Position numbers and translations under genes: made by a program. The notes under the pieces were generated by a model. It was not told where the DNA came from. It made no database searches and worked only from the letters and a program-made list of their open reading frames with translations. A stretch of 64,000 bases of DNA from an uncultured Candidatus Saccharibacteria bacterium (lineage in GTDB: Bacteria > Patescibacteriota > Minisyncoccia > Phycocordibacterales > UBA2100): NCBI GenBank assembly GCA_964424265.1, contig CAYRHX010000004.1, positions 4,081-68,080 of the forward strand. Direction: 5' to 3'. Position 1 is the first letter of the stretch; the number at the start of each line of letters is the position of its first letter. Below are positions 11,023-58,197 of the stretch, one piece after another.

Positions 11023-13410
11023 TTACAACTTCACGGTACCCGCTTTCACTTGCTGAATGAGGTCTGAGGCTTGCACAGCAGCTTCGGGAGAAATTTTGGA
11101 AGCAGCCTCAAGCGTCGAGATAGATTTAGCAATATTTCCCATTCCATAATACGCCGCCGCTAAAGTGAAATACCCCTGTGGATCGTTTGGTTGCGCTTTC
11201 ACGCGCCCCTCCCAGACGAGCGCAATCTTCGCATACTGCTTACCCGCCAGGTATGCTGATGTGATTCGTGGATCGGCAGCTTCGCCCGTCGCGATGATTG
11301 GCGCGAGGATGTCGTCGGCCAGCGCTCCGTTACCTGTCTGAATGAGGAGAGCTGCATACAAAATTCGTGCCTGAACATTCGAGGGCTCAAGCTCGTACGC
11401 AGTCTTCAGCGCATTCAATGCCTCGTTTACATCACCGCGAGCCTGTGCATTGAGAGCGATCTCAAAAAGGATCGTCTGTTTTTTTGGTGAATTGGCATGT
11501 GCGGCTTGCAATGCCTCCGCCCCCGCGGCGTAGTTTCCAAATGAATTGTAGACGATTCCCAGAAAGAGAGGGAAGCGTGCATCGAGGGGCGACTCGGTCT
11601 GCTGCAGCTTCATCTCTGAAACAGCGGTGTCGTAGAATGCCTGTTTTTGCGCCCGATCTATTTCTGCCATGCTCGCGATACGTGATGCTATTTGCGACAA
11701 CTGTTCACGCGCTTCTTGAGTGCCGAAAGCACCGACCGCAATTGCCGCTTTTATCATTTCCAAATTTTTGGCAACACCCCCTTGCTGTGGAATGATCGCC
11801 TGTATGAGTAATTTGTTTTGTGCAATCGCTCCCACGTTTACCCAATATAAAGCCCCACACACAACGGCCGTTGCTATACACACCACAATCCAGCCAGCCT
11901 TTCTGTTGAGATCTTTTTTCCAGAGTGGGGGCTCACCTGCTGCGGCGGCGCTGCGCCATGCAATGTACCCAAGGATGGTGCCAAACAAAATGTAGCTGGT
12001 AACATTGTCAAAAACAAAGAAATTATGTACGAAGTATCCTGCCAATAAGCCCGTCAAAATACTCGCCTCAACCCTTGAGAATGCCTTGCTCCACAGTGCC
12101 CAAAGCGCAGCCATAAAAATTGCGAGATAACTCAAAAGCCCTACAAAGCCGCCTGCAATAAGCCAATCGAAAATAATGTTGTGCACGCGGTCAAACCACG
12201 GCTCTTGCGCGTACATGCGTGGATCGTAATATTTATCAAACACCAAGGCGAAATTCTCCTGCCCCCATCCCAATACAGGGCGCTCTTTCACGCCTTCCCA
12301 TGCGATAGACCAATTTATGAGACGTGATTTTGAGGTACTCTCTGAAAGCGAGATCGTCGCGAGCCTGCTCAGAAACCCTATACTATTCAACCCTTGTGTA
12401 TTTCGTAACGCCAAGAAACCCCCGAAGGCGATGACAACGAAAGCGAGGTACCCTGCCGCAACGCGCCACGTTGTCGAAGATGCCCGCACGCCCCCAGTCG
12501 GGCGTTCAAAAAACGTGATGAGAAGCGCGGCAAGGACCGATCCACCAAATAGGCCGAGAATCGTTCCACGTGTACTTGTCTGCAATAACGCGACGGCATC
12601 AAGCATCAAAATCAGGGTAAGAACATGCGCTTGTCTCAGGAACATCAACGACATCACGATGACGTCAAGCGTCATGAGGCCCACGTACAGTGGCCACCCT
12701 GCCCCTGCCTCCTTGAAAATGCTCGCAAAAATACCTGAGACGACGATCAGAAATAAGGCTACCGCGATACGCTCTACCGAATTCCATTCTTTCTTATTTG
12801 ATTGATAAATAAGGAGCACCGCTATGAAAACATGAAAAAGCATGAAGGCAGCGAGGTAAATTGGATTGCCGAATGTACTATCGATGCGAGCCGAAAGACC
12901 TGCAGCAACGTTGTTGCCAGTCGCGACAATTCCAATCGTCTGTAACAACCCGTATATTGATATGCAGGAGGATAATGCTAAGAGGACTTGTAAGAATCGT
13001 CGCCAAAGTACCTCGCTTGTGATCATAGATGACACTACAAAGAGATACGCGAGGACGTGAGCGAGAGTCACCCACCCATCCATGCGTTCGTAGTTACTCC
13101 AAAGACTCTTAAAAGGATACGCCCCGAGTGTATCGGCAAGTCCAATGATGAGGACGAAAACGGTGAAAGCAGTGAGTACCCACGATCGACGGGGTCGGTA
13201 TGCGGAATTTAGTAAGGCGAGTGCAATCCAAGCACCCGCCATCATTTCCACAATAATTCGAAACGCGAAATTCTTACCCGTGATATACGGGAAGAAGAGA
13301 GTCCCATCGACAATGAACGGAACGAGCGCAAGGGAAAATATTGTCCCGAGGACGAAAAAACGAAGCGTCTTTTCTAGTATCATGCGCGGCATTCTACCAT
13401 ACAGCCCCAC
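11023..13410 (-). CDS. O-antigen ligase/polymerase-like (Wzy_C family) polytopic membrane protein with C-terminal TPR repeats
   Basis: 795 aa. About 12 TM helices. Wzy_C-like motif RIDSTFGNPIYLAAFM. C-terminal about 250 aa alanine-rich TPR-like repeats. Confidence 0.7.
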   Translation of the reverse strand: MGLYGRMPRMILEKTLRFFVLGTIFSLALVPFIVDGTLFFPYITGKNFAFRIIVEMMAGAWIALALLNSAYRPRRSWVLTAFTVFVLIIGLADTLGAYPFKSLWSNYERMDGWVTLAHVLAYLFVVSSMITSEVLWRRFLQVLLALSSCISIYGLLQTIGIVATGNNVAAGLSARIDSTFGNPIYLAAFMLFHVFIAVLLIYQSNKKEWNSVERIAVALFLIVVSGIFASIFKEAGAGWPLYVGLMTLDVIVMSLMFLRQAHVLTLILMLDAVALLQTSTRGTILGLFGGSVLAALLITFFERPTGGVRASSTTWRVAAGYLAFVVIAFGGFLALRNTQGLNSIGFLSRLATISLSESTSKSRLINWSIAWEGVKERPVLGWGQENFALVFDKYYDPRMYAQEPWFDRVHNIIFDWLIAGGFVGLLSYLAIFMAALWALWSKAFSRVEASILTGLLAGYFVHNFFVFDNVTSYILFGTILGYIAWRSAAAAGEPPLWKKDLNRKAGWIVVCIATAVVCGALYWVNVGAIAQNKLLIQAIIPQQGGVAKNLEMIKAAIAVGAFGTQEAREQLSQIASRIASMAEIDRAQKQAFYDTAVSEMKLQQTESPLDARFPLFLGIVYNSFGNYAAGAEALQAAHANSPKKQTILFEIALNAQARGDVNEALNALKTAYELEPSNVQARILYAALLIQTGNGALADDILAPIIATGEAADPRITSAYLAGKQYAKIALVWEGRVKAQPNDPQGYFTLAAAYYGMGNIAKSISTLEAASKISPEAAVQASDLIQQVKAGTVKL

Positions 13411-14222
13411 TATTTTGTCTTCGCCTTTTCGATCCGGCCGTGATCATCTTCGAGCCGAACAATGTCGCTTTCATCAAATTTCCCATACGCAACTTCTACC
13501 ACAACACCGCCTTTTCTCGATGAAAGTCTGTGGACCTGTTGTTTCCCAACCCGAAATACTTCCCCTTTTTTAAGAGGAATCTCTTTCACGACCTTACCTT
13601 CGTGAACAGTTGCCAATGCGTCACCTTCGACAAGCAGCCACCATTCTTCGCGATTATTATGATATTGAAGGCTCAATCGCTTTTTTGGTTTAATGTAAAT
13701 CGTTTTCAGGTTCCACCCGCCGCCTTGATCCCATCCGAAATACTCACCCCATGGACGAACCGATTTCGATGCCGGACGCCGCGCTGCGTTAACCATCCAT
13801 GAAGACGACTGGACCTTCCCTCCTACCCCAACATTAAAAACCATTTTGATTCCGAGTTCTCTGCATACAGAAACCTCCGGGACATTCTTCGAAACTCTGT
13901 CGCCGCCATTCGCAAAAACGGTCGGTCGTATATTCGCAAGCGTTCGAGAAACGCTCCGATCCTCATCGTCTTTTTTGTGATCTGTAAAAACAACCTTATC
14001 GACAAATGGTAAGTGCCTGATGATCTCAGCGCGCTCTTTTTGAGGCATGAACACAAAACCCTTTTTCATGCGTAGCCAATGGTCGTTGTTCATGATGACG
14101 AGGAGTCTATCGCCGAGTTTTCGCGCCTCGCGAAACATTCGCACGTGCCCAATGTGCAGAGGATCAAACCCCCCAGACACGGCAACCCATCTCACCCCCC
14201 CTGCATCCCTCTTTCCCTTCAT
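13410..14222 (-). CDS. Cytidylyltransferase-like nucleotidyltransferase (HxGH) fused to type II mannose-6-phosphate isomerase-like cupin
   Basis: Start taken at MKGKRDAGGVRWVAVSGGFDPLHIGHVRM (TagD/RfaE-domain-II-like FDxxHxGH). C-terminal WGEYFGWDQGGGWNLKTIYIKPKKRLSLQYHNNREEWWLLVEGDA matches the ManC C-terminal cupin. ORF extends to 14345 but that N-extension looks non-coding. Confidence 0.65.
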   Translation of the reverse strand: MKGKRDAGGVRWVAVSGGFDPLHIGHVRMFREARKLGDRLLVIMNNDHWLRMKKGFVFMPQKERAEIIRHLPFVDKVVFTDHKKDDEDRSVSRTLANIRPTVFANGGDRVSKNVPEVSVCRELGIKMVFNVGVGGKVQSSSWMVNAARRPASKSVRPWGEYFGWDQGGGWNLKTIYIKPKKRLSLQYHNNREEWWLLVEGDALATVHEGKVVKEIPLKKGEVFRVGKQQVHRLSSRKGGVVVEVAYGKFDESDIVRLEDDHGRIEKAKTK

Positions 14223-14316
14223 GCGCAGAAGTATGCACGTCCGGCACTCACTATGCAAATTTCTATTTCCTTGCGAATAACATCGACCGAGGCTACCATG
14301 CACGAAACACGACACC

Positions 14317-15366
14317 ATGAAAAAAGCACTCATTACGGGCATCACCGGGCAAGATGGTTCTTACCTCGCGGAACTTCTGATTGAAAAGGGATACGAAGTT
14401 CATGGCATTATCAGACGCTCAAGCTCGTTTAATACGGGACGAATCGATCATATCCTCAAAGATCCTCATGCAAAAAACAGGCGCCTCATTCTCCATTATG
14501 GAGATCTCTCAGATACGAGCAGCCTCAACCGTATTCTCGAAAGGGTGAAGCCAGCGGAGATCTACCACCTCGGCGCGCAAAGCCACGTGCGCGTCAGCTT
14601 CGACATACCTGAATATACGGCGGATGTCGATGCGATCGGCACTCTCCGTATGCTCGACGCAATTCGCGAGACCGGCATTAAAACGCGCTTCTACCAGGCT
14701 TCCTCGTCTGAAATGTTTGGCAAAGTCGCAGAAATTCCCCAACGAGAGACTACGCCGTTTCATCCCCGATCCCCCTATGGCTGTGCGAAAGTGTTCGGAT
14801 ACTGGATCGCGAAAAATTATCGCGAGAGCTACGGCCTCTTTGCGTGCAACGGAATTCTTTTCAACCACGAATCTCCCAGACGAGGCGAGACGTTTGTAAC
14901 GCGTAAGGTGACTGCTGGTCTCTCACGTATCAAACGAGGTCTGCAGGAAAAAATCTATTTGGGAAATCTCGATGCGAAGCGTGACTGGGGATATGCTAAA
15001 GACTACGTCGAGGGCATGTGGCTTATGCTGCAACAAGACCAGCCCGACGACTACGTACTCGCCACGGGCGAAACTCATTCTGTACGAGAACTTGTGGAGG
15101 TCGCGGGCGAGATCCTTGGCTTCGACATTGGCTGGCGAGGGAAGGGGCGTGCCGAAAAAGGATTCGATAAAAAAACAGGAAAGGTACTCATCGCGATTGA
15201 CCCTCACTACTACCGACCCGCAGAAGTTGACATTCTCCTGGGGGACGCACGTAAGGCTCGCAAGAAACTGGGCTGGAAACCGAAAGTAACGTTCAAAGAC
15301 CTCATCCGGATTATGGTAGAGTCAGACCTAGAGCTCATCGACAAAAATATAGGCATGGAGCATTGA
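14317..15366 (+). CDS. gmd: GDP-mannose 4,6-dehydratase
   Basis: 349 aa. [46 protein letters not shown] is the canonical Gmd N-terminus. Confidence 0.9.
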
Positions 15367-15412: not shown

Positions 15413-16348
15413 ATGAATAAGGACGCAAAAATATACATCGCTGGCCATCGGGGCCTCGTCGGATCCGCGATTATTCGGGCCCTCAAAGACGCCGGATATT
15501 CTAACATCCTCATAAAAACACACACTGAACTTGATCTGACCCAGCAACAAGCTGTGCGTGCCTTTTTTGAATCCGAACGACCGGAGTATGTTTTCCTCGC
15601 GGCGGCAAAAGTCGGCGGTATCCTTGCAAATCGTGACTATCCCGCAGATTTCATTCGCGAGAATCTCCAGATCGAGACCAACGTGATAGAGAGCGCGCAT
15701 GCCGCTTGTATCGAAAAACTCCTCTTCCTTGGCACTTCTTGCATCTATCCAAAACTGGCCCCGCAACCTATTCGAGAGGAATACCTCATGACTGGGCCGC
15801 TGGAGGAGACAAATCGCGCCTACGCAATCGCCAAAATCGCCGGAATCGAGATGTGCCAGGCGTATCACCGTCAATACGGCTCACGATTCATCAGCGCCAT
15901 GCCCACCAATCTCTATGGCCCCAACGACAACTTCCACCCCCAAAATTCGCACGTCCTCCCCGCCCTCATTCGGCGCTTCCACGACGCCAAAGTGGCAGGA
16001 GACAAGGAGGTGGTGGTATGGGGCACAGGAGCACCGTTGCGTGAATTCCTACATGTCGATGACCTCGGACGAGCATGTGCATTTCTCATGGAAAAGTACG
16101 AAGATTCTAGTATCATCAACATCGGGACGGGAGAAGAGATATCGATTGATGGTCTTGCTGGGCTCGTGAAAAAGACGGTGGGCTATAGTGGAGCTATTAC
16201 GTGGGATTCATCGAGGCCGGACGGAACCCAACGCAAACTTCTTGATATCTCCAAAATACATCGTCTTGGGTGGAAACATGAAATCACGCTTTCCGACGGG
16301 CTGGCACAAACGTATAAATGGTTTATCAACAATGCAAAGACTACATGA
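15413..16348 (+). CDS. fcl: GDP-L-fucose synthase (GDP-4-keto-6-deoxymannose 3,5-epimerase/4-reductase)
   Basis: 311 aa. [19 protein letters not shown]...[14 protein letters not shown]...[14 protein letters not shown] is the Fcl/WcaG signature. Immediately downstream of gmd. Confidence 0.9.
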
Positions 16349-18886: not shown

Positions 18887-19294
18887 TTATTTTATAGGTA
18901 TTTCCCATTCAGATGGATCAGTCGGTCGTCTATGCTCATCGTCAGAGTTAAATTTTTGGTCTATGTAGAATAGTAAAATCGATGGCTCCAGCGATCGATA
19001 TCCGTGCCATATGCCAGGCTTGATGATGAGAGTCTTACGGCTCTGCTCACTCAACAATACACGCTCTTCTCGTCCGTTTTCTGAAACAAGGCGGAAAAGG
19101 ACGCTGCCTTTTGCTACGGTAAAATAATCAGTCTGCCGCGTATGCATATGCATGCCGGCAATAATGCCTGCCTGCATATATGAGAAGTTCATGTCTCCCG
19201 TGAGCCCTGGAACGATATCGTATAGTCCCCGACGCCTCTCGTCTTCATGGAAACGATGCGCATGAAATTCGGTCAACTTTTCTGAATCGGTCAT
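18887..19294 (-). CDS. RmlC-like cupin, probable NDP-4-keto-6-deoxyhexose 3,4-ketoisomerase (FdtA/WxcM-like)
   Basis: 135 aa. GMHMHTRQTDYFTVAKGSVLF His-x-His cupin motif and size typical of FdtA-type isomerases. Confidence 0.55.
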   Translation of the reverse strand: MTDSEKLTEFHAHRFHEDERRRGLYDIVPGLTGDMNFSYMQAGIIAGMHMHTRQTDYFTVAKGSVLFRLVSENGREERVLLSEQSRKTLIIKPGIWHGYRSLEPSILLFYIDQKFNSDDEHRRPTDPSEWEIPIK

Positions 19295-19301
19295 GGTATT
19301 T

Positions 19302-20189
19302 CTATACTATTATATCTAAATATCGCCTTAAAGCATCCCCCCACTCAGGAAGTAGGCTAATGCCTTGATCCCGCAACGCCGTGTTCGCAAGGACGCTCAT
19401 CCGAGGCCGACGTATCTTGCTTCCAGACTCCTTCGTCGGTATCGGCACAATATGCGGCGAAAGCTTAGCTTGGCGGAAAATCTCCTGAGCAAACTTGTAC
19501 CACGATGTCTGCCCCTGATTTGTAACATGGTAGACTCCGTATGGGATACGTCGTACCAAGATCTCTATGATCTTTTCGGCCAAATCAAGAGTGAAAGTAG
19601 GGGCAGTAATCTGATCGTCTACTACTCGTATATCCTTTCCCTCTCGCGCTAATCGCAGCATGACTTGTACAAAATTCTTCTTAGATCCCTCAGCGACCCC
19701 GAACAGGGCGCTCGTTCTCACGATGTAATACGCGGGCGTGGCGATTTGCACCAGAGTTTCTCCGGCATATTTTGATGCTCCATATACATTTATGGGGTGC
19801 GGCAAATCCTTCTCATCGAAAGATGTTCTCGTGCCGTCAAATACATAATCCGTACTCACGTGTACACAAAGCGCCCCAATATCCTTGCATGCCAGAGCAA
19901 CGTAATACGGGCCAAACGCATTCACCTCATAGGCAGAGACGGGGTTGCGCTCCGATTCCTCAACAAGGTTGTACGCCGCGCAATTAATAACAACATCCGG
20001 TTTCTGTGCAACAATGATGTCGCGCACCATGTGAGGATTAGTTATGTCAAAATCCTCGTGATGATAACGCAAGACCTCCATCATCGAGGGCAGTTTGAGG
20101 GCGAGATCAGATCCGAGCTGACCATATCCGCCGATAATGAGCACCTTTTTAATAGTAGCGCCCGTGTCGTTGCTTTTCATAATGATCAC
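19302..20189 (-). CDS. rmlD: dTDP-4-dehydrorhamnose reductase
   Basis: 295 aa. VLIIGGYGQLGSDL...DVVINCAAYNLVEESERNPVSAYEVNAFGPYYVALACKDIGALCVHVSTDYVFDG. Confidence 0.85.
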   Translation of the reverse strand: MIIMKSNDTGATIKKVLIIGGYGQLGSDLALKLPSMMEVLRYHHEDFDITNPHMVRDIIVAQKPDVVINCAAYNLVEESERNPVSAYEVNAFGPYYVALACKDIGALCVHVSTDYVFDGTRTSFDEKDLPHPINVYGASKYAGETLVQIATPAYYIVRTSALFGVAEGSKKNFVQVMLRLAREGKDIRVVDDQITAPTFTLDLAEKIIEILVRRIPYGVYHVTNQGQTSWYKFAQEIFRQAKLSPHIVPIPTKESGSKIRRPRMSVLANTALRDQGISLLPEWGDALRRYLDIIV

Positions 20190-21195
20190 GAAAAATCTCC
20201 TTTGTCTTTATAACCTTCCACCAAGTTGGATTTTTAATATACCAATCCACAATCGCCGACAATGAGTCGTCCAAAGGATGCTGCGGTTTCCAATCGAGTT
20301 CCTTGGTCAACTTTGCCGAATGTGGCGCATAACGCATATCAGCGCCGGGCCTGTCGTCGACGTAGGAAATCATGTTCGTGTGATTCTTACCGAGAATACG
20401 AGCAACTATTTTGATAATTTCGATATTTTTCTTCTCAGTACCGGCAACATTGTAAATACTGCCCGGTCGCGCCTTATGCATGATAAGATCGACGGCCCTA
20501 CAAAAATCTTCTACATGAATCCATGTGCGCACATGCTCACCTGTGCCGTGCACGGGAACGGGCACCCCCTCTAAGAGATTTGTAATCGCGAGAGGAATAA
20601 GTTTTTCTGGATATTGATAGGGTCCGAAATTATTTGAACCGCGAACGATAATCGCAGGCACTGCATGACTTCGAATGTATGACTGCACTAGAAGATCCGC
20701 ACCTGCCTTGGAGGCCGCATATGGATTGGATGGCCGCATGGGAGACATTTCATCCGAGGAACCTTCGCGAATATCGCCGTAAATTTCGTCAGTCGAGATC
20801 TGAATAAATGTCTCAATGTGATGCCTGCGTACCAGATTCAACAAAACGTGCACTCCGGTGATGTTGCTGCGGACAAATTCGGCCGAATCAACAAGAGATC
20901 GGTCAACGTGGCTTTCTGCGGCAAAGTTGACAACAACATTTACACGCTCCTTCAGGAGAAGCGCATTGAGTTTCCCTGCATCACATATATCGCCATGTAC
21001 AAATACATACCTCCTTTCCTCAACTTTTTTTCCCGCTTCCAACTTCTCAATGTCTGAAAGATTGTCCGGATTCCCCGCATATGTCAAAAGATCGTAATTG
21101 ATAATCTTATAATCAGGGTAAAGTGTGTACATACGACGAATAAAATTCGATCCCATGAAGCCGGAGCCGCCCGTAACAAGAATCTTTTTACTCAT
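20149..21195 (-). CDS. rmlB: dTDP-glucose 4,6-dehydratase
   Basis: 348 aa. MSKKILVTGGSGFMGSNFIRRM...YAGNPDNL...NFAAESHVDRS. Confidence 0.9.
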   Translation of the reverse strand: MSKKILVTGGSGFMGSNFIRRMYTLYPDYKIINYDLLTYAGNPDNLSDIEKLEAGKKVEERRYVFVHGDICDAGKLNALLLKERVNVVVNFAAESHVDRSLVDSAEFVRSNITGVHVLLNLVRRHHIETFIQISTDEIYGDIREGSSDEMSPMRPSNPYAASKAGADLLVQSYIRSHAVPAIIVRGSNNFGPYQYPEKLIPLAITNLLEGVPVPVHGTGEHVRTWIHVEDFCRAVDLIMHKARPGSIYNVAGTEKKNIEIIKIVARILGKNHTNMISYVDDRPGADMRYAPHSAKLTKELDWKPQHPLDDSLSAIVDWYIKNPTWWKVIKTKEIFRDHYEKQRHGRYY

Positions 21196-22421
21196 ATAAT
21201 CTGCATGTCGCCGATGGGAATGATGAATTTACCACCCTTACTTCTATACTCCGCTTCTTTCTGCAAGATTTTATCCTTATAATTCCATGCAAGCATGAGG
21301 AAATAATCAGGGGGATCCTTGCGCGCCTCCCTCACGTCAACCACAGGAATATGCATGCCGGGACTGTACGAGCCAATCTTTGTGGGAAGTTCTTCGGTAA
21401 GGTAATCGAGTGTTCCGGTACCGATTTTGAAATAATTGAGCAAGGTATTCCCTTTGGCCGGCGCTCCATATCCCGCGATCCTCTTCCCTTGCGCTTTGAG
21501 TTCAGATAACAGTCTGAGTAGTTTTTCTTTCGACGCTGCAATACGTTCGGCAAGCCTTGTATATGCATCAATCGAATCCATGCCGAGCGATATCTCTTTT
21601 TTGACGAGATCTGCAACGGTCGGCATGACTTTGCGCGTTCCGGAGCGCGCAGCAAATACCCGAATTGACGTCCCTTGAGTTTCCTGAAGTTCTACATCAA
21701 AAATCTCTAGCCCGAATTGGCTGCACAGCCGCTGCAACGGTCGAATCGCAAGAAAACACACGTGCTCGTGATAGATGGTGTCAAACGCGAGATTCTCGAA
21801 CATATCTACCAAATACGGAGCCTCGAAAACAAATACTCCGTCCTCGGCAAGCAGCGCGGTAACACCTCGCATAAGATCATGTTTATCATCAATGTGCGCA
21901 ACTACATTATTGCCAATAATAACTTTTGCCTTCCCGTGACTCGCGAGTATCCTTCGAGCGCACTTTTCTCCAAAGAAGTCGACGATGGTCGGCACATGAC
22001 GATCTTCCGCCGCTTCTGCAATATTCCTCGCGGGATCGACACCTAGTATGCGGATTCCTTCAGGAAGGAATGCGGATAGAAGTAGTCCGTCATTGCTCCC
22101 AATTTCGACGACAAGATCCTCGTTCCGCTTCAATCGAAATCGTTTTGTCACATTCTTTGCATATTCGACAAAATGCTGCGGGGTCGGCATGTGCGATGTG
22201 AAGTATACATATTGAGAAAACAGCTCCTCTTTATCAACGACGTGACACAACTGGACGTGATTGCACTCATCACAAAAATACACCTGAAGCGGGTAGAAAG
22301 GTTCCTGAGCAACGGGAATGGCACTCACAAACGCGTTCGCAAGTGGCTGTTCCCCAAGATCAAGAAACTTGGTGAGATGCGATGACCCGCAGATACGACA
22401 TTCTTTCTTAAGAGTATACAT
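21192..22421 (-). CDS. NDP-hexose C-methyltransferase (TylCIII/NovU-like; Zn-ribbon + class I MTase + C-MeTrfase C-terminal domain)
   Basis: 409 aa. N-terminal CRICGS...CDECNHVQL. MTase core VVEIGSNDG. C-terminal ...GGKFIIPIGD. Confidence 0.75.
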   Translation of the reverse strand: MYTLKKECRICGSSHLTKFLDLGEQPLANAFVSAIPVAQEPFYPLQVYFCDECNHVQLCHVVDKEELFSQYVYFTSHMPTPQHFVEYAKNVTKRFRLKRNEDLVVEIGSNDGLLLSAFLPEGIRILGVDPARNIAEAAEDRHVPTIVDFFGEKCARRILASHGKAKVIIGNNVVAHIDDKHDLMRGVTALLAEDGVFVFEAPYLVDMFENLAFDTIYHEHVCFLAIRPLQRLCSQFGLEIFDVELQETQGTSIRVFAARSGTRKVMPTVADLVKKEISLGMDSIDAYTRLAERIAASKEKLLRLLSELKAQGKRIAGYGAPAKGNTLLNYFKIGTGTLDYLTEELPTKIGSYSPGMHIPVVDVREARKDPPDYFLMLAWNYKDKILQKEAEYRSKGGKFIIPIGDMQII

Positions 22422-24613: not shown

Positions 24614-26542
24614 TTATAGATTCGGATTGATTTTCTTCAAATTATACATTGCTTTCATAAAGCCCTCACCGCCAAATTTGTGACCCTGCCATATCTCCGG
24701 AACCATCCAGAGATCCGTCTTTGAGATCAAATCGAGTATTGGCTTCCACGGGACAGAACCGTCGCCGATCTGAAGTCCTTCTCCGTTAATGCGGGCAGCA
24801 TCCGATATATGCAAATATCTTGCGACTGGCAGTATCTTCTTCGCATAACTTAGAATGTCTTTCTCGTACTGATTGCAATACAAAGCGGCGTGAGACGTAT
24901 CAAACACGACACCGTAACCGTGTTCATTTGAAAACTGCGCAATCTCCTCCGCGTTCATAAAATTCGTGTGATACCACTGGCCCCCGAAGCACCAAGCGCA
25001 GCCGGGCATGTTTTCCACAAGCAGCTCGAAGCCGTCAGCGTCGAGTTTGTGGAGGGAATCTGCAAAATTCCGATTCAGTCGAGGTATATCATCCATTTTC
25101 GGCAATTGCATATTCATGCCGCCCGGATGGACGACAAACATTACTTTCTCATCCTTATTGACAAACAGTCTTTTTAGCGTGCGTGCGTACGCCAGCGCTT
25201 TATTGAAAAAGGCAATCGAGTGTTTCCGAAGGTCGTCGTCCAAGCTGGAGAGGTCGAGGAGCGTATCGCCATCATACTCTGGGCCGTGTACCGTCATCAT
25301 AAGAGGATATTTCTTGGTATATTTTCGAGCACTCGATACGTCCGAGCCGGTCAAGTGAATCTCGGCGAAATCCGAACCGCAGTGCATGAGCGTGTCAATA
25401 TCGCTCATGCGCGCAACAACTCCCCATGCATGACGTACGTCCACTGCACCGAAGAGGTCGCGAGGGCGCAGATTGATGTCCGATTCGAGAACGTAGTCGT
25501 CTTTTTTAATGCTTCTCGCCGTCAATTTTTTACCGATAAAAAGATCGAGCTTCATGGGGCTCGTACCCTTGCCAGGACTCTTGAGATTCAAATGCGCTTG
25601 CGTTAGTACGGTCCCTTTCTTCAGGTCCTTCGCGGCAACGATACTCTTCGCGAGAGTCTCACGATTGATGTACTCTCCGCGTGACGGTATACGCACACCG
25701 TCGCCCAAGGACGTTTCGACAACACGGATTTGCTTCACGAGCTCTGCGAATTCGGCGGGCTCAAGACTTGCCTTATGGTCGGGCCCGACCATCTCTCGAT
25801 CTAGCGTGATGTGGCGTTCAATCACGCATGCACCGAGCGCAACCGCAGCCGCTGAGACCGAGATCCCCGCCTCGTGTCCCGAATAGCCGACGAGACAGTG
25901 GAACCGCTTCTGAAGCGTATTTATAAACCTCAGATTTACGTCGTGAAATGGTGTCGGGTAGGTGCTGTTAGTGTGGAGCAGAACGTACTGGGCTTTAATC
26001 TTGTCGAGATACCCGAAGAGCTGTTCAACTTCAGACATAAATGACATGCCAGTTGATATGAGGATTGGCTTCTTGAGTTCCGCCACCGCACCGATGAGCG
26101 GTAGATTGAACATGTCGGCGGACGCAATTTTGTACGCGGGCAAATCAAGTGTATTAAGAAATGCGAGACTCTCCTCATCCCAAGCGGTACAGAGAAACTC
26201 TACCCCCATCGTGCGCGCATACTGGCACAGCGTACGCATCTCCGCTTCGCTCAGTTCACTCTTTTGGATGTGTCGCAAGCTATAGTGTGTGGCATTCTCT
26301 TCGGATGCAGAATTCTTCAGAGCCTTGGCCGCGTAGACGCTTTTTAAATCGCGCTTTTGAAACTTGACCGCATCGACGTGAGCCGCCACAGCATGATCAA
26401 TCAGCTTCTTTGCGAGTGTAACATCGCCCTGATGATTTAGGCCGATCTCAGCAATGATATACGTCGGATGACCATCGCCAATGCGCTTCTTCCCGATACG
26501 TATTTCAGTCATAGGCACTACCGTACCACAACACACGACCAC
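24614..26542 (-). CDS. Fusion: NeuB-family nonulosonic acid (sialic/legionaminic/pseudaminic acid) synthase + xylose-isomerase-like TIM-barrel domain
   Basis: 642 aa. N-terminal IGDGHPTYIIAEIGLNHQGDVTLAKKLIDHAVAAHVDAVKFQ with SAF domain (KDLKKGTVL). C-terminal about 300 aa sugar-phosphate isomerase/epimerase-like. Probable start MTEIRIG at about 26512. Confidence 0.75.
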   Translation of the reverse strand: MVVCCGTVVPMTEIRIGKKRIGDGHPTYIIAEIGLNHQGDVTLAKKLIDHAVAAHVDAVKFQKRDLKSVYAAKALKNSASEENATHYSLRHIQKSELSEAEMRTLCQYARTMGVEFLCTAWDEESLAFLNTLDLPAYKIASADMFNLPLIGAVAELKKPILISTGMSFMSEVEQLFGYLDKIKAQYVLLHTNSTYPTPFHDVNLRFINTLQKRFHCLVGYSGHEAGISVSAAAVALGACVIERHITLDREMVGPDHKASLEPAEFAELVKQIRVVETSLGDGVRIPSRGEYINRETLAKSIVAAKDLKKGTVLTQAHLNLKSPGKGTSPMKLDLFIGKKLTARSIKKDDYVLESDINLRPRDLFGAVDVRHAWGVVARMSDIDTLMHCGSDFAEIHLTGSDVSSARKYTKKYPLMMTVHGPEYDGDTLLDLSSLDDDLRKHSIAFFNKALAYARTLKRLFVNKDEKVMFVVHPGGMNMQLPKMDDIPRLNRNFADSLHKLDADGFELLVENMPGCAWCFGGQWYHTNFMNAEEIAQFSNEHGYGVVFDTSHAALYCNQYEKDILSYAKKILPVARYLHISDAARINGEGLQIGDGSVPWKPILDLISKTDLWMVPEIWQGHKFGGEGFMKAMYNLKKINPNL

Positions 26543-30645: not shown

Positions 30646-32529
30646 ATGAGAAACCTTCGAGATATCTATCTAGCGCTTTGCGCATCGTATGCAACACAGA
30701 TGCGTATCGCCAGGTTCATTATTTCCGGTGGCACTGCAACAGCTGTCAATCTTGGAGCACTATTCATACTCACACACTTATTCCACATCTGGTATCTCTT
30801 TTCTTCAGTACTTGCATTTGGCGCGTCATTCCTCGTCAGCTTCACATTGCACAAATTCTGGACATTCGGTGACACCTCTCAGGATCGCATACACGTCCAA
30901 GCATCTCTATTCTTCCTCGTCATCGTTACGGCGCTCGGAATCAACACTGGTCTGCTCTATACGTTTGTCGAGTACGCACATCTGCACTACCTCGTCGCAC
31001 AATTTATAAGCGGTATTTTCATCGCATTCATCAACTACTTCAGCTACAAGCACCTTGTGTTTCGTGTGGAAGATCCATCAACTGCGCCGACAGAAAACTC
31101 CAGACCTGTGCTTACACGCCTCTTTTTCCTTGCATGTGCCACGGTGACATTTCTCATTCTCGCGCTCTACCGCCTGCCAGAAAATCCACCGACATGGTTG
31201 GATGAAGGGGCCATAACGCAGGTGTCTATCAATCTCGCACACAGCGGAACCTATGGTCTTCAGACAGCGCCTGGACATTTCGTCTCGACCGATTTTCTCA
31301 CCACGAGCCTCCCGGTCATCTATCCTGTCGCTCTCTCGTTTTTCCTTTTTGGCACATCGATTTTGGATGCGCGGATGGTCATGGTTATTTTCATGGGACT
31401 CCTGTGCGTCTTTTCGTATTTTCTGATCCGGATGCTCGCCACCGAAAGGAAACGCGAGTTACCCATCCTCTCTCTGTACTTACTAGTCACATTTGCGCCG
31501 CTCTACGGACACGGAAAAAATGTGCTCGGCGAAGTACCCGGACTCATGTTCTTCGTCGCCTCTCTTGTCGCCTTTCATTTCGCGGAAAGACGTTCGGGTC
31601 TGTGGCTTTGGATACTTTCAGGTGCGTTTTTGGGTCTCTCGGCGACCACCAAACCAATCTACCTGTTTATTATTGCGCCATCCGCACTATTGACACTCCT
31701 GATATATCGCAAACGATTCTCTCTCAAAAACATCGGCGTCTACGCCGTGAGCGCTTCGAGCATTCTCATGTTGTGGTTTTTCGTACACGTCACGAATGTC
31801 GTCGCCCTTAAAGAGATTCTTCTTTCAGCCAACACGAACAACGTCGCGCTCTCCACTCGTCTTTTTGAAAATGGCATTCGATTCGTTTCCGAACCTCAAC
31901 CACTTTACTTCCTCGCTCTCCTTGCTCTTTGGTGGATCGCCTTGGTATACCGCAGATGGAAGAGGATTGAGATCTCAAGCGTTGAGCTCTTTGCTGGTAT
32001 TTTTGCTGTGACAAATCTCATTCTGTATCTTGCAAGTCGAGGTTTTTATCGTTACTTTTTCCCCGCGGAGATACTCGCGCTGATTTTCTTACCACTCGCT
32101 CTATACACCATGCCGCTCAAAGAACAGTACCGAGCCATATTCCTTAAAGCCTGTACCGCGTTCATCGTATTTCTTGTCCTCCTCCAAGGCTATCAAACAT
32201 TTTTCCGTTCATGGATATCTGAATACAGATCGAGTGCTCGCTCTGCCCTTCTTTCTGAACACCTGCGCGGTATCCCCGGTGAAAGAAGCGTCTTTTTCTA
32301 CAATGTTCCCGAAGCCGTCATATTTTTGCCATCTCAAAACTACTACCAGTACTTGTGGTTCGGCGACAACACCATCCGAGGAGAAGAAAATCTGCCGATA
32401 CTCTTTCGAGGTGAGCCCGATTTCGTCTTAGTAGATGGAAAATTCCCTGATACTGACAAAATATCGCCTCTATATATTGAGATTTCGCGATTCGACAAAT
32501 ATGTTCTCTACGAAAAAAAGCGCAAGTAA
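30646..32529 (+). CDS. GtrA-like domain fused to GT-C (GT39/GT83, ArnT/PMT-like) membrane glycosyltransferase
   Basis: 627 aa. N-terminal 4-TM GtrA (FIISGGTATAVNLGALFILTHL...LHKFWTF) then about 11 TM helices typical of polyprenyl-phosphate-sugar-dependent GT-C enzymes. Confidence 0.75.
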   Translation: MRNLRDIYLALCASYATQMRIARFIISGGTATAVNLGALFILTHLFHIWYLFSSVLAFGASFLVSFTLHKFWTFGDTSQDRIHVQASLFFLVIVTALGINTGLLYTFVEYAHLHYLVAQFISGIFIAFINYFSYKHLVFRVEDPSTAPTENSRPVLTRLFFLACATVTFLILALYRLPENPPTWLDEGAITQVSINLAHSGTYGLQTAPGHFVSTDFLTTSLPVIYPVALSFFLFGTSILDARMVMVIFMGLLCVFSYFLIRMLATERKRELPILSLYLLVTFAPLYGHGKNVLGEVPGLMFFVASLVAFHFAERRSGLWLWILSGAFLGLSATTKPIYLFIIAPSALLTLLIYRKRFSLKNIGVYAVSASSILMLWFFVHVTNVVALKEILLSANTNNVALSTRLFENGIRFVSEPQPLYFLALLALWWIALVYRRWKRIEISSVELFAGIFAVTNLILYLASRGFYRYFFPAEILALIFLPLALYTMPLKEQYRAIFLKACTAFIVFLVLLQGYQTFFRSWISEYRSSARSALLSEHLRGIPGERSVFFYNVPEAVIFLPSQNYYQYLWFGDNTIRGEENLPILFRGEPDFVLVDGKFPDTDKISPLYIEISRFDKYVLYEKKRK

Positions 32530-40348: not shown

Positions 40349-42292
40349 TCATTTTCCGTACACACCCTCTAAAAGATCGAGATCTTTGTGCGTATCGCGG
40401 AGAAGTTTTACATTCTTGTGCTCCATCGCCTTCAATACTTCAATGCCGGGCGCATCGTCGGGAAATAGCTCTTCGTACTTCGCACGAAACGCGGCAAAGT
40501 CCTTGATGAAACAATGTCCCCCTGCCCCGCGCCCCGGCGGCCCACCGTGCCCGCTTTGATGAATAGGATCGAGATGCGAGCGTCCCATACGCGGATCAGC
40601 TGCAAACGCGTCGCGCACGGCTTCATAATTCCCCCCGAGTTTTCGCACAAAATCGTAGAGAATGTTGATATACACAACCTTGATATAGAGCCAATTATTG
40701 CCGGCATATTTGATAAATTCCGCTTCTACGGCTGAGCAAATAAGCTCGAACGGCGCGGGAGGAAGAATCGAGATGACCCTTTGCGCGAGTGCCCGAACTT
40801 CTGAAGTATCTGTGCAGATGCCGACGATGTTGCGATCGGGATGTGCGGCGTCGTACGCAGCTGTGGCCTCGCGCAAAAATTCTGGCGAATGCATTACCAC
40901 TTTTGTCGGATACTGCTTCTGAATGCTCTCAGTCATGCCCGGCAACATAGTGGATTTGATTACGGCAACCTTGCCCTCTCCAACCAGTGATACTGCTTCG
41001 CGAACGATTGCATCGCTAAATCCGCTGGGAGTAGTCGGTGTCGGCACCGCGATAAACACAATGTCGCAATCTTTTATTTTGTCCTTATTATTTCGGTACT
41101 GCTCTTCGAGAGAGTATCGAATTGGAGTAAATCCACGCGCCTCCAGTTCGTCGGCATAATTTTTGCCAATAAACCCCTGGCCTACATATCCAACGGTCGG
41201 TCGGTCCGTATCTTTTTGCTTTTTCTCGCCCGCACGCGCCTCCACACCCGAAGCAGAAAGCGATATGTCTGCGTACCACAGATCTCGATATTCAGCCTCA
41301 TTCGGAAAATTCAGAGTCAACGTGCCACGTTTTCCCTCCGAAAGCACCGCGATAGCAACGCGCGCCATGCCCTCGGGTGATGCAACAATCGCCCCCGCCT
41401 CCTTCGCAAGCCCTACGTCATAAGAAACGACGGGGCACCCAGCGGCAAGCGCTTCCATAATCACCATACCGAAACCTTCATACGACGAGGTGAGAAGAAA
41501 GATATCTGCGACTTTGTAATATGGAAATGAATCCTGAGCGCCTTCAAAGGCCACCCTATCGGCGAGTCCCAATTCATGCACTAGTGCCTCGAGTGGCGCA
41601 CGCTCAGAGCCGCTTCCCACAATAACAAGGCCCGCGGTGGGGTCCGCTTTCGCGATCTCTGCAAACGCGCGAATCGAAGCGGCGACGTTTTTTTCTTTTT
41701 CCAACCGCGCCACGATGAGAACGATCTTTTTGAAATTCGGAAATCGCGTGCGTCTGTCCAATGGCTCTGCTTTCATGAGATTCTCGAGATCAACAAAAAC
41801 AGGGAGCACGGTGACAGGGGCTTTGATCCCACGTGCCGTCAGTGAATCCTGAATGCGCTTTGAGACGACGCGTACGGCATCCGCCCGCGACAAGAGAAAC
41901 TGCGCGAGAAGGACCCTCAAGCGGTTTCCAAGCGAATGACCTCGAAAATTCGGATCGAAGAGATCGGTGTGGACCTGAAGATGCAATTTACTTCCACGCA
42001 AGCGAGCAATCGTCCAGGCGACTAACCCCGTCAAAAATGGATCTTGCGAAGTCACTACGTCCGGTCGTTGGATCCTCCAACCTGCTGCAATAGTGCGCAG
42101 AGAGCCCAAAACGCGCCCGAGACCAAACCCCCGCACCGCAGCGTTCCCTGATATCTGGACGAGCTGCAGAGGCCCATGAGGCACCAAAACATCCATTCGC
42201 TCGACAGTTCGCGCCTGCATCCGCAGGCGCCGGGCAACAGAGCTCGTCTCATTAAAAGCGTTCCAATCCGTGGAGAGTACCAATACCCGCAT
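40349..42292 (-). CDS. Fusion: GT4 glycosyltransferase + UDP-glucose/GDP-mannose dehydrogenase-family NAD-binding and catalytic-Cys domains
   Basis: 647 aa. N-term about 370 aa GT4 (GFGMVIMEALAAGCPVVSYD). C-term VGYVGQGFIGKNYA (Rossmann) and GGHCFIKD (UDPGDH catalytic GGSCFPKD equivalent). About 280 aa, apparently lacking the C-terminal UDP-binding domain. Confidence 0.65.
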   Translation of the reverse strand: MRVLVLSTDWNAFNETSSVARRLRMQARTVERMDVLVPHGPLQLVQISGNAAVRGFGLGRVLGSLRTIAAGWRIQRPDVVTSQDPFLTGLVAWTIARLRGSKLHLQVHTDLFDPNFRGHSLGNRLRVLLAQFLLSRADAVRVVSKRIQDSLTARGIKAPVTVLPVFVDLENLMKAEPLDRRTRFPNFKKIVLIVARLEKEKNVAASIRAFAEIAKADPTAGLVIVGSGSERAPLEALVHELGLADRVAFEGAQDSFPYYKVADIFLLTSSYEGFGMVIMEALAAGCPVVSYDVGLAKEAGAIVASPEGMARVAIAVLSEGKRGTLTLNFPNEAEYRDLWYADISLSASGVEARAGEKKQKDTDRPTVGYVGQGFIGKNYADELEARGFTPIRYSLEEQYRNNKDKIKDCDIVFIAVPTPTTPSGFSDAIVREAVSLVGEGKVAVIKSTMLPGMTESIQKQYPTKVVMHSPEFLREATAAYDAAHPDRNIVGICTDTSEVRALAQRVISILPPAPFELICSAVEAEFIKYAGNNWLYIKVVYINILYDFVRKLGGNYEAVRDAFAADPRMGRSHLDPIHQSGHGGPPGRGAGGHCFIKDFAAFRAKYEELFPDDAPGIEVLKAMEHKNVKLLRDTHKDLDLLEGVYGK

Positions 42293-53595: not shown

Positions 53596-53630
53596 GCTTG
53601 CAGTATATCGTATTTTGCTTAGCCGCAGAG

Positions 53631-55193: not shown

Positions 55194-55197
55194 AGCT

Positions 55198-56430: not shown

Positions 56431-56635
56431 GTCGGTGAGCGCTTTCGGCGTATGTCTCTCCAGTTCTTGAGGCAGCTGACTGTCCGCTGCCTCGTCTGCG
56501 CACCACGATCCCCAACGCCACTACCAAAATCCCTGCAATCAAGAAAAGCACGGTATCCCAGCTCTGTGGAAATCCCAAAAACGGCAACGTAGCCACAAAC
56601 GCCCCCAACGTCATAAGAAGTGTGTCGACTGTCAT
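56411..56635 (-). CDS. Small two-TM membrane protein
   Basis: 74 aa. LLMTLGAFVATLPFLGF and VLFLIAGILVVALGIVV. Start overlaps RT stop region. Confidence 0.4.
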   Translation of the reverse strand: MTVDTLLMTLGAFVATLPFLGFPQSWDTVLFLIAGILVVALGIVVRRRGSGQSAASRTGETYAESAHRHEELAQ

Positions 56636-57666: not shown

Positions 57667-57722
57667 CCCAGAAACCGTACCCCCCCCCCGCCCGATTCCG
57701 CAACAACAATTCGTGCCCGTCG

Positions 57723-58069: not shown

Positions 58070-58083
58070 TGGGAGAAAGACGT

Positions 58084-58197
58084 GAGTTTCTGACAACAAG
58101 GCGATTCTCGCGATTCCAGACGTTGTCGTTGTCGAGCGAGTTCACGTTGCGGTTCCACTGCCTGCCATTGCGATTCGCGTAGGCCACGGAGACTTTT
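58084..58197 (-). repeat. DGR template repeat (TR)
   Basis: 114-bp alignment with 58461-58574. All 21 mismatches (18 in the 58084-58193 core, plus 58194-58196) are at T on the plus strand, i.e. A on the minus/TR-sense strand. No non-A substitutions. Encodes Asn-rich ...VSVAYANRNGRQWNRNVNSLDNDNVWNRENRLVVRNS. Confidence 0.9.

What the first reader, a model, noticed from the sequence alone, without database searches (positions are those of the whole stretch)
13410..14222. TagD/RfaE-II-like cytidylyltransferase domain fused to a ManC-type mannose-6-phosphate isomerase cupin, divergent from gmd-fcl
The cupin half (WGEYFGWDQGGGW...RLSLQYHNNREEWWLLVEGDA) is the type II phosphomannose isomerase module normally found at the C-terminus of bifunctional ManC. 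The nucleotidyltransferase half is not the usual GlmU/ManC-type sugar-1-P nucleotidylyltransferase. It is a small HxGH (FDPLHIGH) cytidylyltransferase-like domain. Placed head-to-head with gmd-fcl, it may feed GDP-mannose/GDP-fucose synthesis through a non-canonical route. No conventional manC/manB is seen in the window.
Basis: partly seen in the sequence, partly recalled or inferred. Interest (0 to 1): 0.5.

Follow-up and report, generated by a model that had tools for sequence, protein, structure and literature searches.

The report
Non-canonical bifunctional GDP-mannose synthesis enzyme
This gene from a candidate-phyla-radiation (CPR) bacterium fuses a ManC-type mannose-6-phosphate isomerase barrel to a small HxGH nucleotidyltransferase that in related genomes is fused to every other GDP-mannose pathway enzyme, so it is probably an undescribed, non-homologous substitute for GDP-mannose pyrophosphorylase.

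Summary
Window 13410-14222 (minus strand) encodes a 270-aa protein with PF01467 (HxGH cytidylyltransferase-like, aa 11-148) followed by PF01050 (ManC-type phosphomannose isomerase (PMI) cupin, aa 152-264). It is transcribed divergently from gmd-fcl. No PF00483 sugar-1-P nucleotidyltransferase and no phosphomannomutase (PMM) gene lies in the 64 kb.

The family is large: 3622 homologues, with two-domain relatives down to about 35% identity. It occurs in CPR/Patescibacteria and is annotated only generically.

The HxGH module is a distinct, highly conserved subfamily (57-70% identity across CPR classes and some DPANN archaea). It occurs in these forms:
- alone;
- fused to the PMI cupin, in both orders;
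- fused to a eukaryote-type PMM (HAD) domain, in both orders;
- fused to a genuine GDP-mannose 4,6-dehydratase (GMD);
- as a triple HxGH-cupin-GMD protein.

That pattern brackets the one missing step, mannose-1-P + GTP -> GDP-mannose. The cupin keeps the Q-x-H...E...H metal ligands shared with E. coli ManC.

Best reading (confidence about 0.65): a bifunctional PMI / mannose-1-P guanylyltransferase, analogous to ManC but with a different nucleotidyltransferase fold. No activity has been measured. Whole-genome absence of ManC could not be tested, and cyanophage homologues sit in non-sugar contexts. I found no paper describing it.

The parts
13410..14222 (-). Complete gene for the 270-aa HxGH-nucleotidyltransferase / PMI-cupin fusion protein
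   Evidence: ORF and translation; identical gene called on four public contigs; Pfam PF01467 + PF01050.
13779..14192 (-). N-terminal HxGH nucleotidyltransferase domain (aa 11-148), a Rossmann-like alpha/beta fold
   Evidence: PF01467. AF2 model has pLDDT 80-95 here. Foldseek matches 3GLV with TMt 0.84. It is 57-70% identical to stand-alone ~150-aa proteins of other CPR and DPANN genomes.
14145..14156 (-). HIGH (HxGH) nucleotide-binding signature, H23-H26
   Evidence: Translation; H23, G25 and H26 are invariant in A1 and A3.
13797..13817 (-). KVQSSSW, the C-terminal phosphate-binding signature that corresponds to the (I)STT motif of TagD/HldC
   Evidence: K136, Q138 and S139-S141 are invariant in A1 and nearly invariant in A3. 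The motif aligns with the 'CSTTNI' of E. coli HldE.
13431..13769 (-). C-terminal ManC-type phosphomannose isomerase cupin (aa 152-264)
   Evidence: PF01050, 64.1 bits. 34% identical to E. coli ManC 371-478. Foldseek matches Thermococcus PMIs 7ZVM/7ZVY with TMt about 0.8.
13644..13667 (-). QYHNNREE: cupin motif 1, with predicted metal ligands Q186, H188 and E193
   Evidence: These residues are invariant in 21 family members and in split or fused cupins plus E. coli ManC. The spacing matches His44/His46/Glu51 of the Thermococcus PMIs (PMC9369236), with Gln in place of the first His.
13530..13532 (-). H231, predicted fourth metal ligand (cupin motif 2, VHRL)
   Evidence: Invariant in A1 and A2.
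14223..14316 (.). 94-bp divergent intergenic spacer between the fusion gene and gmd
   Evidence: Sequence. The consensus scan found no sigma-70-like site inside it.
14317..15366 (+). gmd, GDP-mannose 4,6-dehydratase, the predicted consumer of the product
   Evidence: TIGR01472 590.8 bits, cut-off 415; 62% identical to E. coli Gmd.
15413..16348 (+). fcl, GDP-L-fucose synthase-like enzyme
   Evidence: NF047922 493.5 bits, cut-off 500; 56% identical to E. coli Fcl.
11023..13410 (-). Downstream Wzy_C (O-antigen-ligase-like) + TPR membrane protein. Its mechanical GTG start overlaps the fusion gene's stop by 1 nt, so the two probably share an operon
   Evidence: Pfam PF04932 + TPR. The same gene follows the fusion gene, or the stand-alone HxGH gene, in 22 of 78 genome loci.

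Best explanation
The protein is a bifunctional enzyme of GDP-mannose synthesis. Its C-terminal ManC-type cupin isomerises fructose-6-P to mannose-6-P, using a Q-x-H...E...H metal site. A separate HAD-type phosphomannomutase, encoded elsewhere in this genome, would convert mannose-6-P to alpha-mannose-1-P. The N-terminal HxGH domain would then transfer GMP from GTP to mannose-1-P, giving GDP-mannose. That is the reaction normally done by the unrelated NTP_transferase domain of ManC. GDP-mannose would be used by the divergently transcribed Gmd/Fcl (GDP-fucose type sugars). It would probably also supply the polyprenyl-phosphate-mannose-dependent glycosyltransferases of the adjacent glycan locus, whose products the co-transcribed Wzy_C-TPR protein would help to assemble. 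What is shown: the domain identities, the conserved catalytic signatures, and the fusion and neighbourhood pattern. What is inferred: both activities, GTP as the nucleotide, the alpha-anomer, and the link to the Wzy_C protein.
For: Fusion evidence brackets the missing step. The same HxGH subfamily (57-70% identical over aa 13-150) is found in these architectures:
- HxGH + PMI cupin: 33 genome loci, and many of the 230 50%-identity clusters at E<1e-30.
- Cupin + HxGH in reverse order: P0136, P0256.
- Split adjacent genes: L043, L054, L066, L080.
- HxGH + PMM-type HAD: L059, L065, L066, and in reverse order P0258, P0266.
- HxGH + GMD: L063/P0278.
- HxGH + cupin + GMD: L036 and seven 90%-identity clusters from NCBI, JGI and Logan.

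The fused GMD is 70-75% identical to ordinary proteobacterial GMDs. The HAD domain's best solved relatives are L. lactis alpha-phosphoglucomutase 4BND (6e-38) and eukaryotic PMMs, and it keeps the DxDGT motif.

Neighbourhoods agree. A PMM gene lies beside the HxGH gene in L011, L037, L041, L069, L071 and L080. gmd, fcl or a gmm-like NUDIX gene lies beside it in L008, L009, L017, L020 and L021.

Catalytic signatures are intact. HxGH and K-x-Q-S-S-S are invariant, as are the cupin residues Q186/H188/E193/H231 and the ManC-specific RPWG and ExDIxR..D..GR motifs.

No PF00483 or ManB gene occurs in the 64-kb window, although gmd, fcl and a large glycan locus are there. The NTP_transferases found near four related loci are glucose-1-P cytidylyltransferases scoring above the TIGR02623 cut-off, not ManC.

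The related HxGH enzyme HldC acts on a manno-configured sugar-1-P and accepts a hexose-1-P surrogate (PMC7993394).
Against: - No biochemical data exist for any member, and literature searches found none.
- Only 64 kb of this genome was seen, so a canonical ManC elsewhere cannot be excluded. Unassigned NTP_transferases lie near L067, L069 and L071.
- The only characterised sugar-1-P enzyme of this fold, HldC, uses ATP and a beta-anomer, whereas GMD needs GDP-alpha-mannose.
- Only about a third of loci show a GDP-mannose gene within 10 kb.
- Cyanophage homologues (41-46% identity) sit between DNA polymerase and uvsX with no sugar genes nearby.
- A few HxGH fusions are to HNH, NUMOD3, a MazG-like domain or the Shedu SduA_C domain.
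- The homologous cupin of E. coli ManC is not known (from my own knowledge) to have PMI activity, so the cupin could be non-catalytic.
Confidence: 0.65

Rival explanations
1. The pathway logic is the same but the sugar is a heptose. The cupin would isomerise sedoheptulose-7-P to D-glycero-D-manno-heptose-7-P (the GmhA reaction). The PMM-like HAD would act as a heptose phosphomutase or phosphatase. The HxGH domain would be an HldC-like heptose-1-P nucleotidyltransferase, and the 'GMD' would be a DmhA-like GDP-heptose dehydratase.
For: The best named relative of the N-domain is HldC/RfaE domain II (TIGR02199 68 bits; 37% identity to E. coli HldE). Heptose is manno-configured, so every enzyme has a chemically analogous heptose reaction. 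From my own knowledge, DmhA-type dehydratases are GMD homologues.
Against: The score is far below the HldC equivalog cut-off (68 vs 181.5). No HldA/HldE-type kinase was found in any of about 80 loci. The adjacent or fused dehydratases are 62-75% identical to ordinary GMDs. They come with fcl and gmm-like NUDIX genes, as in the E. coli GDP-fucose cluster. The cupin carries ManC-specific motifs.
Confidence: 0.08
2. The HxGH domain activates mannose-1-P, or hexose-1-phosphates in general, with a nucleotide other than GTP. Alternatively it is a broad-specificity sugar-1-P nucleotidyltransferase that serves several branches of the glycan locus.
For: Characterised members of the fold use ATP or CTP (HldC, TagD, CCT/ECT). 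The window has a second NDP-hexose 4,6-dehydratase / C-methyltransferase / RmlD-like set (19302-22421) with no cognate NTP_transferase in 64 kb. The nearest solved relative of the fused HAD is an alpha-phosphoglucomutase.
Against: Direct fusion to a bona fide GMD and adjacency to gmd-fcl point to the GDP-linked product. The PMI cupin fusion points to mannose rather than glucose.
Confidence: 0.12
3. The HxGH domain is the guanylyltransferase, but the cupin is not an isomerase. It would be a regulatory or sugar-binding module, or it would act on the nucleotide sugar.
For: The homologous domain of E. coli ManC has no demonstrated PMI activity (my own knowledge). The second His of the classic cupin HxH pair is variable in the family (N/H/R/Q/G/F at position 190). 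Many cupins in glycan loci are NDP-sugar epimerases; two other such cupins lie in this window.
Against: Q186, H188, E193 and H231 are invariant. They are spaced exactly as the four metal ligands of the Thermococcus PMIs, and Gln occupies the first position as in type I PMI. PF01050 scores well above its cut-off.
Confidence: 0.1
4. The N-domain has a function unrelated to sugar-1-phosphates, and the sugar-pathway fusions are incidental. Candidates are TagD-like glycerol-3-P cytidylyltransferase, RibL-like FMN adenylyltransferase, or cytidylylation of a sugar-6-phosphate as in CDP-6-fructose synthesis.
For: phmmer hits to ECT, the Thermoplasma volcanium protein 3GLV (which I take, from memory, to be RibL-like) and TagD are as good as or better than those to HldC. 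Cyanophage homologues sit in a replication module. A sugar-6-P cytidylyltransferase exists in C. jejuni (PMC10918830).
Against: Scores are far below the TagD cut-off (39.5 vs 165.4). The C. jejuni enzyme belongs to a different family, PF01128. Independent fusions, in both orders, to PMI, PMM and GMD are very unlikely to be incidental.
Confidence: 0.05

Closest known systems
Type II PMI-GMP bifunctional enzymes (ManC/CpsB, AlgA, XanB; TIGR01479)
   Same: It has the same C-terminal cupin (PF01050; 34% identity to E. coli ManC 371-478; shared RPWG, S-x-Q-x-H-x-x-R-x-E-x-W, H-R-L and E-x-D-I-x-R...D...GR motifs). The order is also nucleotidyltransferase at the N-terminus and isomerase at the C-terminus. 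It has the same genomic partners (gmd, fcl, gmm-like NUDIX) and the same predicted pair of reactions.
   Different: The roughly 350-aa PF00483 NTP_transferase plus linker of ManC is absent. A 140-aa HxGH (PF01467) domain of an unrelated fold takes its place. The whole protein has 270 aa against about 480. TIGR01479 scores 55 bits against a cut-off of 373.
[quoted passage not shown]
   Same: It shares the HxGH fold and is the best-scoring named family. It is 32-37% identical to E. coli HldE domain II. The HxGH, N-x-D...K-G, GGD and S-T/S-T/S motifs line up. HldC is the only characterised member of the fold that activates a (manno-configured) sugar-1-phosphate.
   Different: It scores 68 bits against a cut-off of 181.5. 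It has its own signature (SGGFDP, NNDxWLxxKKG, FANGGDR, GGKxQSSSW). No HldA kinase, GmhA or GmhB context was found. The predicted nucleotide is GTP and the anomer alpha, against ATP and beta for HldC.
TagD / CCT / ECT cytidylyltransferases (PF01467; PDB 1COZ, 3ELB)
   Same: It shares the superfamily, the HxGH motif and the lysine pair that binds the substrate phosphate.
   Different: Those enzymes act on glycerol-3-P or phospho-bases with CTP. TIGR01518 scores 39.5 against a cut-off of 165.4, and the genomic and fusion context is entirely sugar-nucleotide.
Small archaeal cupin phosphomannose isomerases (Thermococcus TK0503/TERMP_00744; PDB 7ZVY, 7ZVM)
   Same: The best structural matches of the C-domain (TMt about 0.8). 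Both are roughly 110-residue single cupins with a four-ligand metal site at equivalent positions.
   Different: Sequence identity is only about 20%. The first ligand is His in Thermococcus and Gln here and in ManC. The Thermococcus proteins are stand-alone.

Membership tests
Type II PMI-GMP (ManC/AlgA, TIGR01479) | N-terminal PF00483 NTP_transferase domain that carries the guanylyltransferase activity | tested here: not met
   No PF00483 hit. TIGR01479 matches only model positions 357-466 (55.2 bits, cut-off 372.95). BLASTP to E. coli ManC covers only residues 371-478.
Type II PMI-GMP (ManC/AlgA, TIGR01479) | C-terminal PF01050 cupin with conserved Q-x-H...E...H and flanking ManC motifs | tested here: met
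   PF01050 64.1 bits, cut-off 23.6. Q186/H188/E193/H231, RPWG and ExDIxR..D..GR are invariant and shared with E. coli ManC.
Type II PMI-GMP (ManC/AlgA, TIGR01479) | Measured PMI and mannose-1-P guanylyltransferase activities | not testable with these tools
   This needs enzyme assays. The activities are only inferred from the fusion and neighbourhood pattern.
Cytidylyltransferase-like HxGH superfamily (PF01467 / TIGR00125) | HxGH motif in a Rossmann-like fold plus a C-terminal S/T-rich phosphate-binding motif | tested here: met
   PF01467 46.1 bits (cut-off 21) and TIGR00125 50.1 bits (cut-off 27.7). H23-I-G-H26 and K136-V-Q-S-S-S-W are present. The model superposes on 3GLV with TMt 0.84.
HldC / RfaE domain II (TIGR02199) | Score at or above the equivalog cut-off | tested here: not met
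   68.1 bits against 181.5. A stand-alone relative, L044, scores 66.2 bits.
HldC / RfaE domain II (TIGR02199) | Genomic or physical association with the heptose-7-P kinase (HldA / HldE domain I) | tested here: not met
   blastp with the E. coli HldE kinase domain found no hit (E<1e-6) in any ORF of about 80 loci, nor, at E<=1e-3, in the window.
TagD glycerol-3-P cytidylyltransferase (TIGR01518) | Score at or above the equivalog cut-off | tested here: not met
   39.5 bits against 165.4.
Metal-dependent cupin phosphomannose isomerases | Four metal ligands at cupin motif 1 (two positions plus Glu) and motif 2 (His) | tested here: met
   Q186-x-H188-x4-E193 and H231 are invariant. The spacing equals His44/His46/Glu51/His85 of the Thermococcus PMIs. 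The position-190 His of a classic HxH pair is not conserved, and it is not the ligand position in this register.

The most novel reading that the evidence does not exclude
The small HxGH proteins of this subfamily, alone or fused to PMI, PMM or GMD, are the main or only GDP-mannose pyrophosphorylase of much of the CPR/Patescibacteria and of some DPANN archaea. That would be a non-homologous replacement of ManC, a second independent enzyme fold for EC 2.7.7.13. It would also be the first HxGH-fold enzyme that makes a GDP-alpha-hexose.
Probability: 0.5. Interest if true: 0.75.

Novelty: new variant of a known kind. Interest (0 to 1): 0.6.

Why it matters
GDP-mannose is the entry point to mannosylation and to GDP-fucose, GDP-rhamnose and GDP-perosamine sugars. 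In all textbook pathways one enzyme fold makes it. A second, unrelated fold doing this job in CPR and DPANN organisms would fill a gap in their metabolic reconstructions. These proteins are currently called 'hypothetical', 'cytidyltransferase-like' or, wrongly, 'heptose kinase/adenylyltransferase'. It would also extend the known chemistry of the HxGH nucleotidyltransferase superfamily, and give a compact 270-aa two-step enzyme for nucleotide-sugar synthesis. The prediction can be tested directly with a recombinant protein and commercial substrates.

Tried and rejected
Functions considered and rejected:
- ADP-heptose (HldC) assignment. Scores are far below the cut-off and there is no kinase context.
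- TagD-like CDP-glycerol synthesis. It scores below the cut-off and the context is wrong.
- RibL-like FAD synthetase, suggested by 3GLV being a top structural and sequence hit. It cannot explain the PMI, PMM and GMD fusions.
- Sugar-6-P cytidylylation, as in C. jejuni CDP-6-fructose synthesis. That enzyme is PF01128, a different family.

Checks made:
- I tested whether nearby RmlA-like genes could be the true ManC. In four loci they are glucose-1-P cytidylyltransferases scoring above cut-off. In three loci they remain unassigned.
- I tested whether gmd adjacency is the conserved feature. It is not. The Wzy_C-TPR/secA synteny is more conserved.

Dead ends:
- The promoter and terminator scan of the region was uninformative.
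- Rfam found nothing in the window.
- The AFDB Foldseek library was unavailable.
- The viral structure search added little.
- Eight literature searches found no description of the fusion or of an HxGH-type mannose-1-P guanylyltransferase.
- Whole-genome absence of ManC could not be tested, because only +/-10 kb around each homologue is retrievable.


Full report
**Observation.** The window's minus strand between 13410 and 14222 carries a 270-aa ORF. Public gene callers annotate the identical ORF on four contigs. Pfam finds PF01467 (CTP_transf_like) at aa 16-112 and PF01050 (MannoseP_isomer, the C-terminal cupin of ManC) at aa 152-259. Both score above their curated cut-offs, and there is no PF00483 NTP_transferase hit. 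BLASTP against E. coli K-12 proteins fetched from RefSeq aligns aa 156-264 to the last 108 residues of ManC/CpsB (34% identity). It aligns aa 9-108 to domain II of HldE (37% identity). The gene is transcribed divergently, across 94 bp, from gmd and fcl. gmd is 62% identical to E. coli Gmd and scores above the TIGR01472 cut-off. fcl is 56% identical to E. coli Fcl.

**Surroundings.** The window comes from a CPR/Patescibacteria genome; the closest named homologues are Kaiserbacteria and Parcubacteria. From about 13.4 to 47 kb it holds a large glycan locus, which contains:
- gmd and fcl;
- a second NDP-hexose 4,6-dehydratase with C-methyltransferases and an RmlD-like reductase;
- a NeuB / aminotransferase / CMP-type cytidylyltransferase set;
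- a flippase, several GT1/GT2/GT4 enzymes, and two PMT_2 (polyprenyl-phosphate-mannose-type) transferases.

No PF00483 enzyme and no phosphomannomutase was found anywhere in the 64 kb. This holds for Pfam scans, for jackhmmer with E. coli RmlA/GalF/ManC-N, and for blastp with ManB or HAD-type PMM domains. Directly downstream lies a Wzy_C (O-antigen-ligase-like) + TPR membrane protein. Its mechanical GTG start overlaps the fusion gene's stop by one base. secA and gatB follow it. This gene order recurs in related genomes, whereas the genes on the gmd side vary.

**The family.**
- There are 3622 homologues in the 5.8-billion-protein collection, and all but three of the best 120 carry both Pfam domains.
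- In the 50%-identity representative library, 230 clusters match at E<1e-30. Many are roughly 250-aa two-domain proteins down to about 35% identity.
- Public names are 'hypothetical protein', 'cytidyltransferase-like domain-containing protein', 'adenylyltransferase/cytidyltransferase family protein' or, in JGI, 'heptose 7-phosphate kinase/heptose 1-phosphate adenosyltransferase'.
- A 21-sequence alignment shows invariant HxGH (H23, G25, H26), the motifs NNDxWLxxKKG, FANGGDR and GGKxQSSS, and the cupin residues RPWG, S-L-Q186-Y-H188-x-x-R-x-E193-x-W, H231-R-L and E-x-D-I-x-R-x-x-D-D-x-x-R.
- AlphaFold2 gives a confident two-domain model (mean pLDDT 80). The cupin superposes best on the Thermococcus phosphomannose isomerases 7ZVM/7ZVY, and the N-domain on 3GLV.
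- The Thermococcus enzymes bind their metal through His44, His46, Glu51 and His85 (PMC9369236). In the same register the family has Q186, H188, E193 and H231. This is the Gln-His-Glu-His set also present in E. coli ManC and, from established knowledge of Candida PMI, in type I PMI.

**The decisive evidence.** A scan of one genome per species found at least 586 loci encoding relatives. Searching their ORFs with separate HMMs for the two halves showed that the N-domain is a module in its own right. It is 57-70% identical across CPR classes and some DPANN archaea, and it is usually a stand-alone protein of about 150 aa. Pfam scans of the longer versions and a further homology search give this set of architectures:

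| Architecture | Examples |
|---|---|
| HxGH + PMI cupin | this gene and 33 genome loci |
| PMI cupin + HxGH (reverse order) | P0136, P0256 |
| Separate adjacent HxGH and cupin genes | L043, L054, L066, L080 |
| HxGH + PMM-type HAD | L059, L065, L066 |
| PMM-type HAD + HxGH (reverse order) | P0258, P0266 |
| HxGH + GDP-mannose 4,6-dehydratase | L063 = P0278 |
| HxGH + cupin + GMD | L036 and seven 90%-identity clusters from three data sources |

The HAD domain's nearest solved relatives are the L. lactis alpha-phosphoglucomutase and eukaryotic phosphomannomutases. The fused dehydratase is 70-75% identical to ordinary bacterial GMDs. Unfused neighbours tell the same story. A PMM gene sits next to the HxGH gene in six loci, including two DPANN archaea. 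gmd, fcl or a gmm-like NUDIX gene sits next to it in others.

The pathway is PMI (fructose-6-P -> mannose-6-P), PMM (-> mannose-1-P), then the unassigned step, then GMD (GDP-mannose ->). Every enzyme has been fused to this module except the one that converts mannose-1-P and GTP to GDP-mannose. By Rosetta-stone logic the module is that enzyme.

**Mechanism proposed.**
1. The cupin uses its Q/H/E/H metal site for the aldose-ketose isomerisation.
2. A HAD-type PMM, encoded outside the window, supplies alpha-mannose-1-P.
3. The HxGH domain binds GTP through the HIGH and KxQSSS signatures and the sugar phosphate through the conserved lysines. It then releases PPi and GDP-mannose.

The domain identities, the motifs and the genomic pattern are shown. 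Both activities, the nucleotide and the anomer are inferred. I put confidence at about 0.65.

**Evidence against, and rivals.**
- HldC, the only characterised sugar-1-P enzyme of this fold, uses ATP and a beta-anomer. It does accept a hexose-1-P surrogate (PMC7993394).
- A heptose version of the same pathway is chemically possible. It lacks any kinase context and conflicts with the ordinary gmd-fcl-gmm partners.
- A different nucleotide, or broad specificity, cannot be excluded.
- The cupin might be non-catalytic, as is possibly the case in E. coli ManC.
- Canonical NTP_transferases near four related loci are glucose-1-P cytidylyltransferases, but three others are unassigned.
- I could not examine whole genomes.
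- Homologues in T4-like cyanophages (41-46% identity) lie between DNA polymerase and uvsX without sugar genes nearby.
- A few fusions are to HNH/NUMOD3, a MazG-like domain or the Shedu SduA_C domain. The wider subfamily may therefore not be functionally uniform.

**Comparison with known families.** Functionally the protein resembles type II PMI-GMP enzymes (ManC/AlgA) and shares their cupin. It fails their defining N-terminal PF00483 domain, so it is not a member. It belongs to the HxGH cytidylyltransferase-like superfamily, but it falls far below the equivalog cut-offs for HldC (68 vs 181.5 bits) and TagD (39.5 vs 165.4). It has its own sequence signature. Eight full-text searches found no description of the fusion or of an HxGH-type mannose-1-P guanylyltransferase.

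**Verdict.** This is a real, widespread and uncharacterised architecture. It is best read as a domain-swapped analogue of ManC, a new variant of a known kind of enzyme. Interest is moderate to high (0.6), because it predicts a second fold for a central nucleotide-sugar reaction and can be tested at once.

Noticed in passing
window 56632-58570: A diversity-generating-retroelement-like unit. A reverse transcriptase (RVT_1) lies at 56632-57666 on the minus strand. A 110-nt direct repeat lies at 58084-58193 and 58461-58570. All 17 mismatches between the copies fall on T of the first copy on the + strand, which is A on the RT's strand. That is the adenine-specific template-repeat / variable-repeat signature.
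   Followed up: partly
window 24614-26542 (-), 40349-42292 (-), 30646-32529 (+): Unusual fusions inside the glycan locus: NeuB + SAF + xylose-isomerase-like TIM barrel (642 aa); GT4 glycosyltransferase + UDP-glucose/GDP-mannose dehydrogenase (647 aa); GtrA + PMT_2 (627 aa).
   Followed up: no
window 18887-22421 (-): A complete-looking NDP-6-deoxyhexose branch: 4,6-dehydratase, C-methyltransferase, RmlD-like reductase and a cupin epimerase. No cognate sugar-1-P nucleotidyltransferase lies anywhere in the 64 kb.
   Followed up: partly
L091 8974-9438 (S-SSM7), L092 6977-7438 (P-TIM68), L093 5977-6438 (S-SCSM2R): T4-like cyanophages carry a roughly 150-aa homologue of the HxGH module (41-46% identity). 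It always lies between DNA polymerase gp43 and uvsX, it is annotated inconsistently (HldE-like or TagD), and no sugar genes are nearby.
   Followed up: partly
P0232, P0250, P0254, P0184 (representative library): The HxGH module also occurs fused to NUMOD3 or HNH endonuclease domains, to the Shedu SduA_C nuclease domain, and to a MazG-like domain. The GDP-mannose hypothesis does not explain these architectures.
   Followed up: no
L006 428-865 (-): One genome that has the PMI fusion also encodes a second, stand-alone HxGH paralogue, next to a B12-binding radical SAM enzyme.
   Followed up: no
window 11023-13410 (-) and loci L008-L072: The Wzy_C + TPR protein, secA and gatB keep a conserved order next to the HxGH gene across many Paceibacteria-type genomes, whether or not the cupin is fused. 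The glycan genes on the other side are hypervariable.
   Followed up: partly
window 51772-55454 (-): A TrwB/T4SS coupling-protein-like ATPase (51772-53595) lies next to a fused L,D-transpeptidase + D-Ala-D-Ala carboxypeptidase (53631-55454).
   Followed up: no
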